From the NCBI GenBank assembly GCA_951406725.2, contig OX597825.1:65844001-65908000 (forward strand): a stretch of DNA of 64,000 nucleotides. Direction: 5' to 3'. This document shows, piece after piece, positions 72-56,016 of the stretch (position 1 is the stretch's first letter; each line of letters begins with the position of its first letter). Made by a program: the position numbers and the translations under genes. The notes beneath the pieces are model-generated. The model was not told where the DNA came from. It saw only the letters and a list, made by a program, of their open reading frames with translations, and searched no databases. Source of the stretch: Octopus vulgaris. Lineage: Eukaryota.

Positions 72-470
72 ATAAGTTCAGCAAAAATTTAGATTCAGAT
101 GAAAATGGTACTTAAGTTAAAGGCACCAGAATTTGGTATGGTATTATTCATATAGATCACATGGGGTGATTATAATCAAAATAAGCAACAAAAGTGATAA
201 AAAAATCTGCCCATGAGAAAAGATCTTCTACTAGTATGTTCTTACTGATGAAATTCACCTCTCTGTTTATATATCTACCCTCTTTGTAATATTGGCAAAT
301 GGAATAGGTATAAAAATGAACGTTGTCAATTTAATTAAAAACATTCCATATGTGGCTGAAGAGTGTTCTACATTTTAAAACTAATGTAATACTTACATTG
401 TTTAATTAAATTAAGTAGCATGAAACGATTGTACTACACTACCTTTGGATATCCTTGTTGCTTATTTTGA
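72..470 (+). mobile_element. Short non-coding Penelope-like (PLE) derived element, family A, between (TA)n tracts
   Basis: Hammerhead at 351-438. The 3' end (ttgttgcttattttga) is inverted at about 177-192. 72-192 is the reverse complement of 43651-43768. Confidence 0.7.
351..438 (+). ncRNA. Minimal type-I hammerhead ribozyme
   Basis: tgtgg-CTGAAGA-gtg(tt)ctac...gtagcat-GAAA-cgattg-TA-ctaca. Stems I, II and III all pair and the cleavage triplet is GUA. Confidence 0.8.
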
Positions 471-914
471 TATATATATATATATATATATATATATATA
501 TATATATATACACACGTTCATATCGAACGGTGAGAATCAGTGTTTCAAACCGTATTGGTGGGTAAAGCATCTGTATTTGTAGGTTTACCAGGCTACCATT
601 GGTTTCACGATAAGGCAGCTATCTCTTAGCAACTATCAAGCCAGTAATATCTTGGATGATGTTCTCATCTTACTATGAAGCCAATGGTCCAGTGGTAACA
701 TGGTTAACTTACAAATAAAGTATATATGTGTATATATACACATATATATACATATATATAATTGCTAAGAATATATACTTTAACTGTCCAATACTACATA
801 TAATATTTGTAAACAAACCAGAAGGTTTTGTAAGCTACGGAGATAGAGTGACTATGGTATTAATCTCATGCAATGGATTTTTTAAAAGAAAAAAAGTTAT
901 GAGTGTTTTTAAAG

Positions 915-1160
915 CAAGACACTTTATTTCACGTTGCTCCAGTTCACTCAGCTGTAGAAATGAGTGACGACGTTACAGGTGCCACGGTGTATCGGCCCCT
1001 TTGCCTTTCCCTTGGATAACACTGGTGGCGTGGAGAGGGGAGGTCGATATCCATGAGTAACTGCTGGTCTTCCATAAACAACCTTGCCCGGACTTGTGCC
1101 TGGGGGGATAACTTTCTAGGTGCAATTCCATGGTCTGTGTCGTGACCGAAGGGGGTCTCA
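915..1160 (+). mobile_element. 5'-truncated SINE (family 3-related body)
   Basis: tttcacgttgctccagttcactcagctg is shared with the copies at 40858-40886 and 30255-30285 (reverse). Confidence 0.6.
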
Positions 1161-2021
1161 GAATATATACACAACACATATATATACCCCTTCACACACG
1201 CACTTATATATACATATTTATTTATTCATTTACACGCGTATACACCCATTGGCACTGAATTAAATGTTCTTGAACTTTCGCATTCAATGGCTTATTGAAG
1301 TATGTTGGATGACCCATAATTCAAAGACATTTTGGTGTCACAAGCACTCCAGTATTTTCTACTTTACCCACTTTTTTGTGTCCCAGAAATATTGTATGTT
1401 TCATTGTCTTCGATATTTCAATCAACCACACTAAATTATGTGTGAGCGTGTGAGTGAGTGCGTGTGCGCGAGTGCATGCGTGTGTATACTCAATATATGT
1501 CATGCACAATACTCAATATATGTCAAAAATGATAAATTTCAGCCTGATGATTAAATCTTAATCTTTCTGCTTGAAGTTAGCCGTCATTTTCTTCTTGTGT
1601 TCTCATTTGTCTCCTTTTTGTCAGTGTTTTACTTTTTTAAATCGAGTCTAGCCTATATTACTCATTATATTTATTGTCATTTAGTATTAGCAAAACCCTC
1701 TCTCTAATTCTTAATAACCATTGAATTCTTCTTGATCAAAGTTCTGCAGTTTAATGTTAAAATGTTTCTCAGTGACAAAGTATTATTAACCTTCTAGCTA
1801 GCAATTACCTGCTGTATATTTGAAACTATAACTCTACGCTTCTACAGTAATAGGGCCTCCTCACTCAATTACTAACCTTCATTAGTTTGACTGACTCATT
1901 CACACACAATTATATTTCCTTTCCCTCTTCTCTCTGTTTATCTATCTGTGTGTGTATATATATATATATATATATATAAGTAAATGGAGTTGAACGCAAA
2001 TGTTATTAAAATTCTTTTACT

Positions 2022-2100
2022 TTCGACATATGTTTCGAAGACAACATTGGTTTTATTCCAAAGAAATAAATGGTGTAAAATGCAATCTTCTCATCAGGAA
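2022..2100 (-). ncRNA. Minimal type-I hammerhead ribozyme in a ~170 bp insert between (TA)n tracts
   Basis: Minus strand: ttc-CTGATGA-gaagattgcatt...aatgttgtcttc-GAAA-catatg-TC-gaa. Stem-III loop is palindromic and the triplet is GUC. Confidence 0.8.
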
Positions 2101-3884
2101 TTTTCCATGTTAACGGTAAACAAAGGATAATTCATTCATCCATTTATATATATATATATGTATGTATATGTACATATATATATATATATGTATGTGTGCA
2201 TATATATATATATAATTTCTACCCTTTATAACGCTATCCAAATAACTCCACGTCTCCTTCATTATACAATGTCTCTCACCTCACATACACTTGAATATCA
2301 TAAGAGAATTTGTTGCTCTTTCGCTCCCTCTCATATATGTTTCACTTCTGTCTATTTTATTATTCGGTCACTTTCTATAAATCTATAATTTTATCACGTT
2401 ACCTCTCTAATTCCTCCGCGTTTGTAGATTGCATCTTTCTTCATTCCACTGCTTCACAATACCAATCTTCTACTATTATTCTTCGACCATAGACTGTATA
2501 CGCCGGAGTGCCTGCCCTACATTCTGTCTAACTGCTGGTAAATTTTCAATCTGTAAATTTCACTGTATATATCTCCTTGTCCAGCAGTTGCTTTCTCCTC
2601 ACACAATCTTCAAGAAATGTGAATGTCATGGCCTTTTTATATATGCAAGTATACATATGTGTCTGAGTGTGTATATGAGAGAAAGTGTGTGTGAGCATCT
2701 GTGAGCATCTGTGAGCGTGTATGTGCATTATGAATGTAGTGTGTGCGTTAATTATATATAGGTTTAACAAGAACTACAGATATTTAGCACAGTTTCTTTT
2801 ATTCGGTCTGCGGTCCTTCTAGACGATTCGGTGCATTTTGTGCATAAAAAATAAACACACACATATATGCACACATAGAAACACACGCACAAACACAAAC
2901 ACATAAATATAGAGAGAGACATACATACATACATATATACATACATATATATATTTACATATATATATATATATATATATATATATATATATATATATAT
3001 ATATATATATATATATATATATATATATATATATATATATATATATCCAAATCCAAACATACGAATATATAACTATGTAGATAAATGTGTTTGTATACAT
3101 GGATATTTGTCTACTTTCTGGTTATAATCCTATTTGTTTAATCCCAGCATATAACAGCTTTTTTGCAACTTTCGACACAAGATTTCACTCGGCAAATTCT
3201 TATATACACTTTCATCCACATACATCTAGTAATTTCTAACAACTATATATTCAGCAAATATATTTTACACATAATTAATACGCCATACCCAATGGATATG
3301 CTCATATATTGAAAATTAAAAAATAGAAAAAAAAACGCCTTCATCAACAATAAAAATATTAGCAAAAACTAAAATATTTACTTTTTTTATAAACTATGCT
3401 ATACACATATGATATTGCAGGCATGAAGCGATCACGTGATTTTCACACGCACGTGTATGAACACGTATGAAAATCACGTGTTTCTACGTATGGCAAATTA
3501 ATACATGATTTGATGACAAATTCCTAAATGGTCCAGCAACTAATCAATTGTCGATGTCTATTAAGTTTTGGGATGATTTTACAAATATCTTTAGCTAAAT
3601 ATTTACATGGTCGCATCTATACTGAAATCCTTTCGATAATTGGTGAGAAACAAGGGATCGCTATACCAAAATTTCAACATCTAATACATACACACTCTAG
3701 ACCGTGGGTCAATACCTATGTTATTTAATCTGTCTGTCTCTCAAGTCTTAAGAAGAGAGAGAGAGAGAAACAGAAAATAATTTTTATAATCTACTTGAAT
3801 TGAGATGGGATCACTTTAATGTACCCACATCGAGCAAGAATCCTGGAAAAAGACTCATCACAAAATTTCAAAAATAATATAATA

Positions 3885-54372: not shown

Positions 54373-54478
54373 TAATAATAATAATAATAACAATAATAAT
54401 AATAATAATAATAATAATAATAATAATAATAATAATAATAATAATAATAATAATAATAATGATGATAATGATAATAAT

Positions 54479-54606
54479 AATACGCAGAACACTTTCCATA
54501 CAATAACCATCAGAGCATCACAACAAATCACAGCACATACCCAAGGCACACAGAGCTGCGCTCGGTAGTGAAGTGAAAGCACGCTATAAAAATAAAACTA
54601 CTGAAT
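54479..54606 (+). mobile_element. Very short 3' end of an R4-like element within (AAT)n
   Basis: IRRTLSIQ* plus a 3' UTR, with (AAT)n on both sides. Confidence 0.55.
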
Positions 54607-55035
54607 GATAATAATAATAATAATAATAATAATAATAATAATAATAATAATAATAATAATAATAATAATAATAATAATAATAATAATAATAATAATGATA
54701 ATAATAATAATAATAATGATAATGATAATAATAATAATAATAATAATAATAATAATAATAATAATAATAATAATAATAATAATAATAATAATAATAATGG
54801 AGAAGGTATGGATGACAAAAACAGTATGTGTTTGCTCTCTTAGCTAACATTCTAAATATTGTAACAGATCTGTTGTTAAAATGATATTTTAAAGAAACTT
54901 GAACGATAAACAATGAATGCATCAGCTTAGAATGCATTCTAAAATATGAATTTTTACAATTACACAGGAAAAAGTACATAGACAGAAATACAATTGAATA
55001 GAGAGCGGAATGGAACGGAAAAAGTCAATTGTAAA

Positions 55036-55432
55036 TCTTTATATATAAAAGTCAAGTTGTGTGTCTGTCTCCTACGATTTAGATTCCTAACTACTCCCAC
55101 ACTTTGCGGTGCAGTTTAACCAAAACCGGGTATCTTATAGTTGTGATTCATATCGAGCCCTTCTGGGTATTAGCGCGCGTCTACGATGAGTCTACGATTT
55201 TTTTTTTAAATTACCATCATTTTTTCTATTTTAATGCATTTTTTCGCTATTATATAAGGGAAGTAACTCTCTAAAAATGTCTACGATGAGTCAATGATTT
55301 TTTAAAAAAATTAACCATAATTTTTTTTCCATTTTTAATGCATTTTTTGCTATTTTTTTACTATAACTCTCTAAAAATGCTTATATAGTTATTTCCCTTA
55401 CAAACCCGAGCAACGCCGGGCGATACTGCTAG
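55036..55432 (+). mobile_element. Non-autonomous Helitron
   Basis: A|TC start and the same 3' end (acaaacccgagcaacgccgggcgatactgCTAG|T) as 27171-27560. Confidence 0.85.
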
Positions 55433-55935
55433 TATGTGATAATTGAATGATTGATAAATAAATGATAATCATGCTAGAGCACGAAATATATAATATATAA
55501 TATTATATATACATCAAAGATAGAATGATACTTGTGGTTACGTAGGAAATTAAATTCTACTATTTTAAAGAATGTTTTAGCGAGGCCCTTGACGTTTAAA
55601 GCGAACGAGGTATAGCCCAACTAGATCCGTCACCTGAGCGGAGTTGGATCAGCCCATAGTTATATAAAAAAATTGCTTCTATTAGTATTGAGGTTATCAC
55701 GGGACCAAAGCTTATTATCAGAGGATATGATGGTCTGCCTGGCAGATAGAATTATATCAATTCCTAAGGAGGTTATGTTGGTTAGGCTTTTAGCTAAGGT
55801 AAGGGGGGTTTAAGGAGGATAGGTGATATAGAGGTGTAGTAATATATGTATATATACATATATAAATACATACATACATATATACAAAAAAATTAGATGA
55901 CAAAGGAATAAACAATTATCTTATGAACTTCATTA

Positions 55936-56016
55936 GCTTACAACTGTTTCTGCTATATGACGCAGTGGACTCATGTTTGAGTGCTTGAGTAACAACTTCA
56001 ATAGCTTCATCAGAGA
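55936..56016 (-). ncRNA. Minimal hammerhead (slightly decayed)
   Basis: ct-CTGATGA-a-gctat...atagc-a-GAAA-cagttg-TA-ag. Confidence 0.65.

What the first reader, a model, noticed from the sequence alone, without database searches (positions are those of the whole stretch)
351..56016. A window-wide population of hammerhead-ribozyme mini-retroelements from about 10 unrelated families
Seen: CTGANGA...GAAA-N4/6-TH motifs with pairing stems at 351, 2022(-), 11054, 19280, 23661 (plus a mirror copy), 39648, 44087, 45800(-), 48368 and 55936(-), with variants at 15036(-), 37073, 37502(-) and 43435. That is roughly one per 5 kb. Outside the core the carriers are mostly unrelated, 150-600 bp, non-coding and embedded in or next to (TA)n. 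Established: Penelope-like elements (PLEs) carry minimal type-I hammerheads in their pseudo-LTRs, and retrozymes are non-autonomous HHR retroelements. Inference: this is a large, diverse, probably unannotated radiation of PLE-mobilised ribozyme elements in this genome. Some may be true non-autonomous families rather than simple truncation products.
Basis: partly seen in the sequence, partly recalled or inferred. Interest (0 to 1): 0.88.

Follow-up and report, generated by a model that had tools for sequence, protein, structure and literature searches.

The report
Penelope retroelement stubs carrying hammerhead ribozymes
This stretch of an animal genome, probably an octopus, is peppered with short leftovers of Penelope-type jumping genes and of their protein-free parasites, each carrying a hammerhead RNA motif that is predicted to cut only in pairs, so it is a rich set of new members of known kinds and not a new kind of element.

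Summary
The motifs are real: 8 structure-checked type I hammerheads in the window against 0.02 in shuffles, and 26 in 800 kb sampled elsewhere against 0.2. Stems covary. The 14 sites fall into 12 families. Five sites (4 families) are 3' ends of protein-coding Penelope-like elements (PLEs), of Hydra type and of Neptune/Nematis type. Three sites are ORF-less units of 355-496 nt whose dispersed copies wrap head-to-tail: true non-autonomous PLE parasites, i.e. animal retrozymes. Six sites are unresolved. Most families show PLE footprints: two fixed 3' ends, (TA)n targets and inverted 5' copies. The window is about five times denser than the sample; the genome-wide estimate is 60,000-100,000 insertions. 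One high-copy family has a swapped G3-C8 core, and one very young family has A9C. Cleavage was not tested. Both element kinds are published, and an octopus Hydra PLE is already listed. This scan had already noted 494- and 356-nt units and the G3-C8 family on other pieces of this genome.

The parts
71..476 (+). Family A sister subfamily: hammerhead core at 356, predicted cut after 433, 59-nt stem-loop II; inverted copy of the family's 3' tail at 71-197; ends in (TA)n. Tied to the Hydra-type PLE by homology only
   Evidence: (74% to 19284)
1975..2135 (-). Family B: core at 2097, predicted cut after 2025; 5'-truncated inside stem I, with the inverted tail just upstream; 3' end of a Hydra-type PLE
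   Evidence: (B-type endonuclease ends 247-281 nt upstream in 4 of 25 copies)
10968..11257 (+). Family C: core at 11059, predicted cut after 11142, 65-nt stem-loop II; inverted copy at 10968-11036; parent unresolved
   Evidence: (0 of 26 copies with an ORF upstream)
14953..15281 (-). Family D: G3-C8 swapped core GTGAACA at 15079, predicted cut after 15043; mirror piece with the tail at 15096-15281; 3' end of a Neptune/Nematis-type PLE with a 1-kb microsatellite-rich 3' UTR
18470..18723 (+). C-terminal 83 aa of a Hydra-type PLE GIY-YIG endonuclease, 5'-truncated at a (TA)n run
   Evidence: (14,940 first-look candidates)
18724..19402 (+). 3' UTR/pLTR of the same family A element: core at 19284, predicted cut after 19361, 563 nt after the ORF; ends in (TG)n(TA)n
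23385..23996 (+). Family E: ORF-less 496-nt unit; core at 23665 (cut after 23726) with mirror core at 23611 on the minus strand; fold-back insertion centred near 23638
37016..37240 (+). Site F: U3-A8 core TTGACAA at 37078 with stems I (5 bp) and II (4 bp), loop III imperfect; preceded by an inverted copy of its own 3' part; no relative found
37384..37790 (-). Family G: A9C core CTGATGC at 37540, predicted cut after 37507; inverted 3' end with tail at about 37695-37790; 3' end of a very young Neptune/Nematis-type PLE
   Evidence: (ORF upstream in 19 of 30 loci)
39456..40167 (+). Family H: ORF-less 355-nt unit, 1.5 units head-to-tail (cores at 39650 and a decayed one at 40005), inverted piece at 39456-39630; both cores degraded here
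43361..43539 (+). Family I: decayed minimal hammerhead, core at 43439; family cores CCGACGA (U4C) or CTGAYGA; parent unresolved
44050..44275 (+). Family J: core at 44090, predicted cut after 44147; 5' end at about -40 in 9 of 9 copies; parent unresolved
45709..45886 (-). Family K: piece of an ORF-less 429-nt unit; core at 45865, predicted cut after 45806
48231..48652 (+). Second family J copy: core at 48371, long 3' tail, inverted piece at 48231-48343
55882..56018 (-). Family L: core at 56013, predicted cut after 55939, stem I weakened in this copy; parent unresolved
   Evidence: (0 of 25 copies with an ORF upstream)

Best explanation
These sites are short insertions of twelve repeat families that carry type I hammerhead motifs, and they were likely written into the genome by Penelope-like (PLE) reverse transcriptase-endonucleases: four families are the 3' ends of protein-coding PLEs, three are ORF-less repeat units that likely borrow those enzymes, and five are unresolved. 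Shown: family membership, ORF linkage, head-to-tail junctions, two fixed 3' ends, (TA)n flanks, inverted 5' copies, covarying stems. Inferred from published PLE biochemistry: the enzyme nicks AT-rich DNA, starts copying at one of two fixed sites near the RNA 3' end, and usually stops early or folds back. The hammerhead lies only 110-330 nt from the 3' end, so even the shortest stub keeps it, which explains the density. Inferred: the ORF-less families are copied from a multimeric RNA (tandem read-through or a circle), because copies run seamlessly past one unit length. Predicted, untested: the short palindromic stem III forms only between two hammerheads, so lone stubs would be mostly silent and tandem source copies would cut out unit-length RNA.
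For: Motif excess. Covariation in 16 family A sequences: 92.7% of cells paired, 25 cells changed on both sides, 0 of 500 shuffles as high on those two measures, slid controls 20-53% paired. Paired 3-8 cores in 800 kb: C-G 17, U-A 7, G-C 1, A-U 0; five mismatched controls gave 0, 1, 0, 1, 0. The commonest loop III is a perfect palindrome in 10 of 13 multi-copy families although this was not required. ORF linkage: A (L318 has hammerheads 3,465 bp apart around a broken ORF); B (L319 has a 778-aa open frame between hammerheads 2,863 bp apart plus an inverted copy); G (19 of 30 loci); D (L284/L398, L388, L386). Wrap-around junctions at a fixed period: E 494-499 nt in 9 of 29 copies (8 separate loci), K 428-430 nt in 9 of 30 (8 loci), H 347-357 nt in 7 of 25; longest ATG frames 54-69 aa. 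Two 3' ends in A, B, C, D, E, J, K and G match the PLE 'tail' (PMC11167929). Inverted upstream copies in 1 of 25 to 19 of 29 copies per family, and 0 of 12 in A. Intact young Hydra-type enzymes exist in the genome (727-aa frames).
Against: No cleavage, RNA end or circle was shown. No sequence link was found between the E, K or H units and the PLE ends held, so the partner enzyme is not identified. One locus each of E, K and H has a PLE ORF piece upstream. For E an inverted E copy lies between and for K the copy sits inside a cluster of another family, so I read these as separate insertions; the H case (1.4-1.5 kb upstream) was not followed. In one search, two of the five measures were not exceptional (37 and 58 of 500 shuffles), and related sequences inflate the others. 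Pfam and PDB sequence searches named none of the PLE proteins, so the clades rest on motifs. In vitro, a lizard PLE inserts equally well with a dead hammerhead, and 8 of 9 frog retrozyme dimers did not cleave. H and L show no clear second 3' end.
Confidence: 0.8

Rival explanations
1. All sites are plain 5'-truncated stubs of autonomous PLEs; none is a family of its own.
For: True for A, B, D and G. D and G first looked like short fixed-end elements until an ORF was found behind their microsatellite-rich UTRs, so C, I, J and L may go the same way. A J-type hammerhead lies about 100 nt after a decayed endonuclease at one locus.
Against: In E, K and H the sequence upstream of the hammerhead is the element's own 3' end, at a fixed period, at 7-8 separate loci each.
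Confidence: 0.1
2. All sites are independent ORF-less mini-retroelements, a radiation separate from coding PLEs.
For: Short length, no ORF in most window copies, about 12 mostly unrelated sequences.
Against: The 19284 site has its endonuclease piece in the window itself; B, D and G link to ORFs elsewhere in the genome.
Confidence: 0.04
3. For E, K and H the template is a self-cleaved, religated RNA circle that is copied by rolling-circle reverse transcription, and not a linear read-through of a tandem array.
For: 5' ends are spread around the whole unit and copies exceed one unit. Coral, mussel and axolotl retrozymes are expressed as circles (PMC7229834).
Against: Genomic dimers exist (K at L106, H at L146 and in the window) and would give the same junctions. 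5' ends show no clear pile-up at the cut site.
Confidence: 0.4
4. The motifs are chance matches in AT-rich, repeat-rich DNA.
For: The bare CTGANGA count is under twofold above shuffles, and several window copies have weak stems.
Against: Structure-checked hits are over 100-fold above shuffles; covariation.
Confidence: 0.01

Closest known systems
Minimal and near-minimal type I hammerheads in pLTRs of metazoan PLEs (Cervera and de la Pena 2014, PMC4209133; parts 1-2 of 4 read)
   Same: Type I topology, short palindromic helix III, extra base before stem II, mostly lone motifs from truncated PLEs, mirror pairs, U3-A8 variant.
   Different: Many families here have 39-65 nt stem-loops II and 6-nt (once 10-nt) palindromes; G3-C8, U4C and A9C cores are not in the parts read; the estimated number (60,000-100,000 insertions) is far above the 2,000-9,000 quoted there, with other descriptors.
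Hydra clade PLEs (Craig et al. 2021, PMC8557442; section 11, passages, and supplement rows read), including Hydra-1_Obim
   Same: C-terminal endonuclease without CCHH, DKT motif, RW motif, CxCX5C linker (family A and the 727-aa family), CxxC and CxH around E/N, (TA)n targets, hammerheads.
   Different: The paper lists one octopus family, without pLTR; here at least three distinct families have hammerhead-bearing ends, with 14,940 and 22,627 first-look endonuclease candidates. The L319 protein lacks the CxCX5C linker.
Neptune/Nematis clade PLEs (features from PMC8557442 passages)
   Same: RT, then a CX3-4CxxC linker, then a GIY-YIG domain with CCHH; (TA)n bias (families D and G).
   Different: Altered hammerhead cores (G3-C8 in D, A9C in G) and 0.5-1 kb microsatellite-rich 3' UTRs. 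Neptune versus Nematis not resolved.
Animal non-LTR retrozymes (Cervera and de la Pena 2020, PMC7229834, passages; Li, Clavereau and Pollet, bioRxiv 10.64898/2026.07.22.740005, parts 1-3 of 5) and MRC1-type non-autonomous PLEs (PMC8557442 passage)
   Same: ORF-less, low-GC units of 355-496 nt with one type I hammerhead, head-to-tail organisation, co-occurrence with PLEs.
   Different: E, K and H were seen as dispersed 0.5-1.7-unit insertions with PLE footprints and not as long arrays; the preprint links retrozymes to PLEs by homology in frogs, whereas here the link is the insertion anatomy and no homology was found.

Membership tests
Type I hammerhead ribozyme | Core CUGANGA...GAAA...UH with helices I, II, III | tested here: met
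   for 8 window motifs; others by family consensus. G has A9C and I has U4C, departures from the core
Type I hammerhead ribozyme | Covariation of helices and of the 3-8 pair | tested here: met
Type I hammerhead ribozyme | Self-cleavage after H17 | not testable with these tools
   no biochemical data; no raw RNA reads
Canonical EN+ PLE (families A, B, D, G) | Single RT plus C-terminal GIY-YIG ORF upstream of a hammerhead-bearing pLTR | tested here: met
   domains assigned from motifs, not from Pfam
Canonical EN+ PLE (families A, B, D, G) | Tandem pLTR-ORF-pLTR, inverted 5' copies, optional 3' tail | tested here: met
   L319 and L318. A full tandem copy was not fetched for D or G
Hydra clade (A, B) | No CCHH; CxxC and CxH flanking E and N; DKT motif | tested here: met
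   L319 and family A frames against PMC8557442 section 11
Hydra clade (A, B) | CxCX5C linker and RWK motif | tested here: inconclusive
   CxCX5C present in A and the 727-aa family, absent in the L319 frame; RW present but the K is not
Hydra clade (A, B) | Placement in the Hydra branch of an RT tree | not tested
   no named reference proteins held
Neptune/Nematis clade (D, G) | CX2-5CxxC linker plus CCHH in a C-terminal endonuclease | tested here: met
   against PMC8557442 passages
Neptune/Nematis clade (D, G) | Phylogenetic placement | not tested
   no named reference proteins held
Non-LTR retrozyme (E, K, H) | Short, low-GC, non-coding unit with a type I hammerhead | tested here: met
   496, 428 and 357 nt; GC 0.31-0.39; longest ATG frame 54-69 aa
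Non-LTR retrozyme (E, K, H) | Head-to-tail copies with a hammerhead in each unit | tested here: inconclusive
   junctions common, two-hammerhead copies seen for K and H only, no long arrays in the loci held
Non-LTR retrozyme (E, K, H) | Expression as self-processed linear and circular monomers | not testable with these tools
   only assembled contigs of runs of uncertain kind

The most novel reading that the evidence does not exclude
This genome holds on the order of 100,000 hammerhead-bearing PLE insertions, among the densest sets known, and runs a natural mutagenesis of the catalytic core in mobile elements: a G3-C8 swap in a family with thousands of copies, U3-A8 and U4C families, and an A9C core in a family young enough to be still moving. 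With intact enzymes and ORF-less parasites side by side, it would let one test directly whether hammerhead cleavage matters for PLE spread and which enzyme copies animal retrozymes.
Probability: 0.35. Interest if true: 0.62.

Novelty: new member of a known kind. Interest (0 to 1): 0.42.

Why it matters
What hammerheads do for PLEs is open: they are conserved, yet dispensable for insertion in vitro (PMC11167929). How animal retrozymes are copied is also open. This genome offers many parallel families, paired and broken core variants, young intact enzymes and ORF-less passengers with enzyme footprints, so both questions become testable in one species. It also suggests that many short octopus repeats may be PLE ends or PLE parasites that automatic annotation would file as SINE or unknown (inference). 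The elements themselves are of known kinds.

Tried and rejected
Rfam scan: the listed matches were microRNA and other models on TA repeats, with no hammerhead among the 150 shown. The repeat finder was swamped by microsatellites. My first guess that 18472-18720 is a Naiad was dropped, because Naiads have an N-terminal endonuclease. My reading that a sharp 5' boundary marks a non-autonomous family was dropped after D and G proved to have ORFs behind microsatellite or poly(T) tracts; sharp ends are therefore not used as evidence for C, I, J or L. A splice-acceptor-like sequence at the D boundary gave no spliced copies. The word-based protein search found nothing; Pfam and PDB gave no useful names. 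No homology between E, K, H, C, J, L and the PLE ends held. Sequencing runs: no RNA holder listed; contigs of runs guessed to be RNA cover the K and C elements, and the K junction also stands in a run of unknown kind, so these say nothing on circles or cut ends. No clear clustering of 5' ends at the cut site was seen by eye; no formal test was run. A profile search of the whole genome for further PLE families was not available, so parents of C, F, I, J and L stay open. Literature: searches for hammerhead with octopus and for natural G3-C8 cores found no report; Lunse, Weinberg and Breaker 2017 on PLE hammerhead variants is not held and may describe such cores. Supplements of the bioRxiv preprint, of PMC4209133 and of PMC13282606 were not seen and may bear on novelty.

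
Full report
Setting. The window is G000:C12:65844001-65908000 of a 2.8-Gb genome, 34% GC, 22% tandem repeat.

1. The observation. All listed sites exist. A strict type I descriptor finds 4 in the window against 0.03-0.06 in shuffles. A descriptor that allows an unpaired base in stem II and requires a palindromic loop III finds 8 against 0.02. 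In 80 stretches of 10 kb taken at round-number positions across 30 contigs (chosen by me, not random) the same descriptor finds 26 hits against a mean of 0.2 in 10 shuffles. Grouped into insertions this is 17 per 800 kb (bootstrap 10-25), or 28 with U3-A8, G3-C8 and U4C cores (18-38), i.e. about 60,000 and 100,000 genome-wide. The window, with 7, is about five times richer than the sample, and was picked for that. For scale, published counts with other descriptors are about 2,000-9,000 minimal hammerheads in Schistosoma, coelacanth and Xenopus, about 5,000 in a mussel and up to 120,000 in the far larger axolotl genome.

Structure is under selection at family level. In 16 family A sequences, 92.7% of cells pair and 25 cells change on both sides; no shuffle of 500 reaches either value, while two other measures are reached by 37 and 58 shuffles, and relatedness inflates all of them. 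Across the 800 kb, cores with a paired 3-8 position number 17 (C-G), 7 (U-A), 1 (G-C) and 0 (A-U); five mismatched controls give 0, 1, 0, 1, 0. Clustering all 253 hits in the DNA held gives 32 clusters; in 10 of the 13 with two or more sequences the commonest loop III is a perfect palindrome, with different palindromes in different families.

2. What the sites are. Each site was searched in the genome; only the best 40 DNA candidates are scored, so the sets are biased to close, motif-containing copies. First-look candidates were 598-3,745 per DNA query.

Autonomous class. The 19284 motif lies 563 nt after the C-terminal 83 aa of a GIY-YIG-type endonuclease at 18472-18720. Genomic relatives extend into an RT, and 11 of 12 show an ORF upstream, by selection. 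L318 holds hammerheads 3,465 bp apart around a broken ORF. The motifs (CxCX5C, DKT, RW, no CCHH, CxxC and CxH) fit the Hydra clade as defined in PMC8557442 section 11; 106 of 150 library relatives carry CxCX5C. The 356 site is a sister subfamily (74% to 19284; tail 80-87% to family A loci). For 2097, 4 of 25 copies have a matching endonuclease ending 247-281 nt upstream, and the related L319 is a textbook insertion: (TA)n, inverted truncated copy, upstream pLTR, 778-aa open frame, downstream pLTR, (TA)n. For 37540, 19 of 30 loci carry a near-identical RT-endonuclease frame upstream, with a CX4CxxC linker and CCHH. For 15079, none of the first 20 copies showed an ORF, but a pattern search on the longest 5' end gave 185 exact matches; their upstream DNA continues through about 1 kb of microsatellite-rich UTR into a CCHH-type endonuclease at L388, L386 and L284, and L398 gives a 487-aa frame with RT motifs, a CX3CxxC linker and the endonuclease.

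Non-autonomous class. For 23665, 45865 and 39650 the DNA upstream of the hammerhead is the element's own 3' end, at periods of 494-499, 428-430 and 347-357 nt in 9 of 29, 9 of 30 and 7 of 25 copies (one locus counted twice in E and in K; 1-2 further rows per family have off-periods). 5' ends are spread round the unit and 3' ends are fixed. The units have no ATG frame over 69 aa. One copy in each family has a PLE ORF piece upstream; see the Against line.

Unresolved. C (0 of 26 with an ORF, longest shared 5' extension -214, no junction), L (0 of 25, -150), J (0 of 9, -44; a J-type motif follows a decayed endonuclease at one locus), I (17 copies; at least two extend into simple repeats) and F (single copy). 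Six duplicate or segmentally duplicated loci (L010, L041-L044, L056) were left out of the family counts.

Shared footprints. Two discrete 3' ends are seen in A, B, C, D, E, J, K and G; this matches the PLE tail that comes from two reverse-transcription starts (PMC11167929). 3' ends abut (TA)n in 32-100% of copies against 5% background (the G row there is distorted by its reference). Inverted self-copies lie upstream in 11/26 C, 19/29 E, 9/30 K, 2/9 J, 9/25 H, 1/25 L, 8/25 B, 12/20 D, 7/30 G and 0/12 A.

Core variants. D has GTGAACA in 39 of 47 aligned pieces (most others are misregistered mirror pieces) and in 15 of 30 pattern loci (9 carry substitutions and 6 could not be read): positions 3 and 8 are swapped with the pair kept, with a 7-bp stem I, 5-bp stem II and palindromic loop. 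The laboratory double mutant partly restores cleavage. Natural U3-A8 is published; natural G3-C8 was not found in three searches, but a key paper is not held and this scan had noted the family before. G has C at position 9 in all 30 copies, in a family whose protein is 93-100% identical between copies. I and the L319 family carry U4C.

3. Mechanism. Shown: anatomy and linkage as above. From established PLE biochemistry: nicking of AT-rich DNA, internal priming at two sites, 5' truncation and inversion. Inferred: because the hammerhead sits 110-330 nt from the 3' end, nearly every stub keeps it. Inferred: E, K and H are copied in trans from multimeric RNA; circle versus linear read-through is open (about 0.4 versus 0.5). 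Predicted: cleavage needs two motifs (PMC4209133), so lone stubs would be mostly inert; family H, with a 10-nt palindrome, could form stem III alone. Against a need for cleavage: and the A9C family here.

4. Comparison. It works like canonical PLEs and animal retrozymes. A and B meet most Hydra features, D and G the Neptune/Nematis motifs; no tree was built. E, K and H meet the sequence features of non-LTR retrozymes; RNA features are untested. Hydra-1_Obim is already listed. The 2026 octopus repeat annotation counts 31 recently active Penelope-like and 893 unclassified SINE families and has no mention of ribozymes in its main text (part 1 of 3 and passages read).

Papers seen: PMC8557442 passages, section 11, supplement rows; PMC4209133 parts 1-2 of 4; PMC7229834, PMC11167929, PMC3088659, PMC3884650, PMC8495972, PMC6765202 passages; bioRxiv 10.64898/2026.07.22.740005 parts 1-3 of 5; PMC13282606 part 1 and passages. 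Others appeared only as search listings.

5. Verdict. Real, well above chance, and explained as a mixture of PLE stubs and PLE-type retrozymes: new members of known kinds. The abundance, the core variants and the presence of young intact enzymes make it a good test system. Interest 0.42.

Noticed in passing
window 7668-9692 +: 674-aa open frame with a reverse transcriptase domain (Pfam RVT_1, E 2e-29); looks like a CR1/L2-type LINE (recalled resemblance).
   Followed up: partly
window 24224-24467 and 40329-40571: Two related pieces (73%); the minus-strand frame at 24249-24626 resembles the C-terminus of a restriction-like endonuclease LINE (recalled; no Pfam match).
   Followed up: no
window 4491-4892, 13942-14406, 27895-28129, 48788-49342, 59127-60777 and 3891-4305, 10606-10959, 32775-33072, 35979-36421, 52999-53318: Two abundant SINE-like repeat families with many copies in the window.
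   Followed up: no
window 45542-45707 and 45947-46116: Inverted arms of about 170 nt, 84% alike, that enclose the family K piece; possibly an older fold-back or MITE-like element that K entered.
   Followed up: no
window 43647-43771, 35764-35903, 20747-20810: Hammerhead-less 3' fragments of families A, J and L.
   Followed up: partly
L338-L367 (e.g. L343: 1-3110): Very young Hydra-type PLE family with many intact 727-aa frames across the genome, a 1-kb 3' UTR and a small hammerhead near the 3' end; a candidate active enzyme.
   Followed up: partly
L332: 4307-6513 (same as L278): Array of 353-359-nt units with a compact canonical hammerhead, five forward and two inverted copies; a U3-A8 sister family with a similar layout occurs at six other sampled loci.
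   Followed up: no
L331: 4274-5981: Array of about 170-nt family D pieces separated by (TA)n, six with a scoring G3-C8 hammerhead.
   Followed up: partly
L320: 4200-5840 minus strand: Nest of four J-type hammerhead elements and one K element behind a decayed endonuclease, suggesting repeated insertion into each other's AT-rich ends.
   Followed up: partly
window 14430-14611: GC-rich 15-bp tandem repeat, 12 copies, 94% matched.
   Followed up: no
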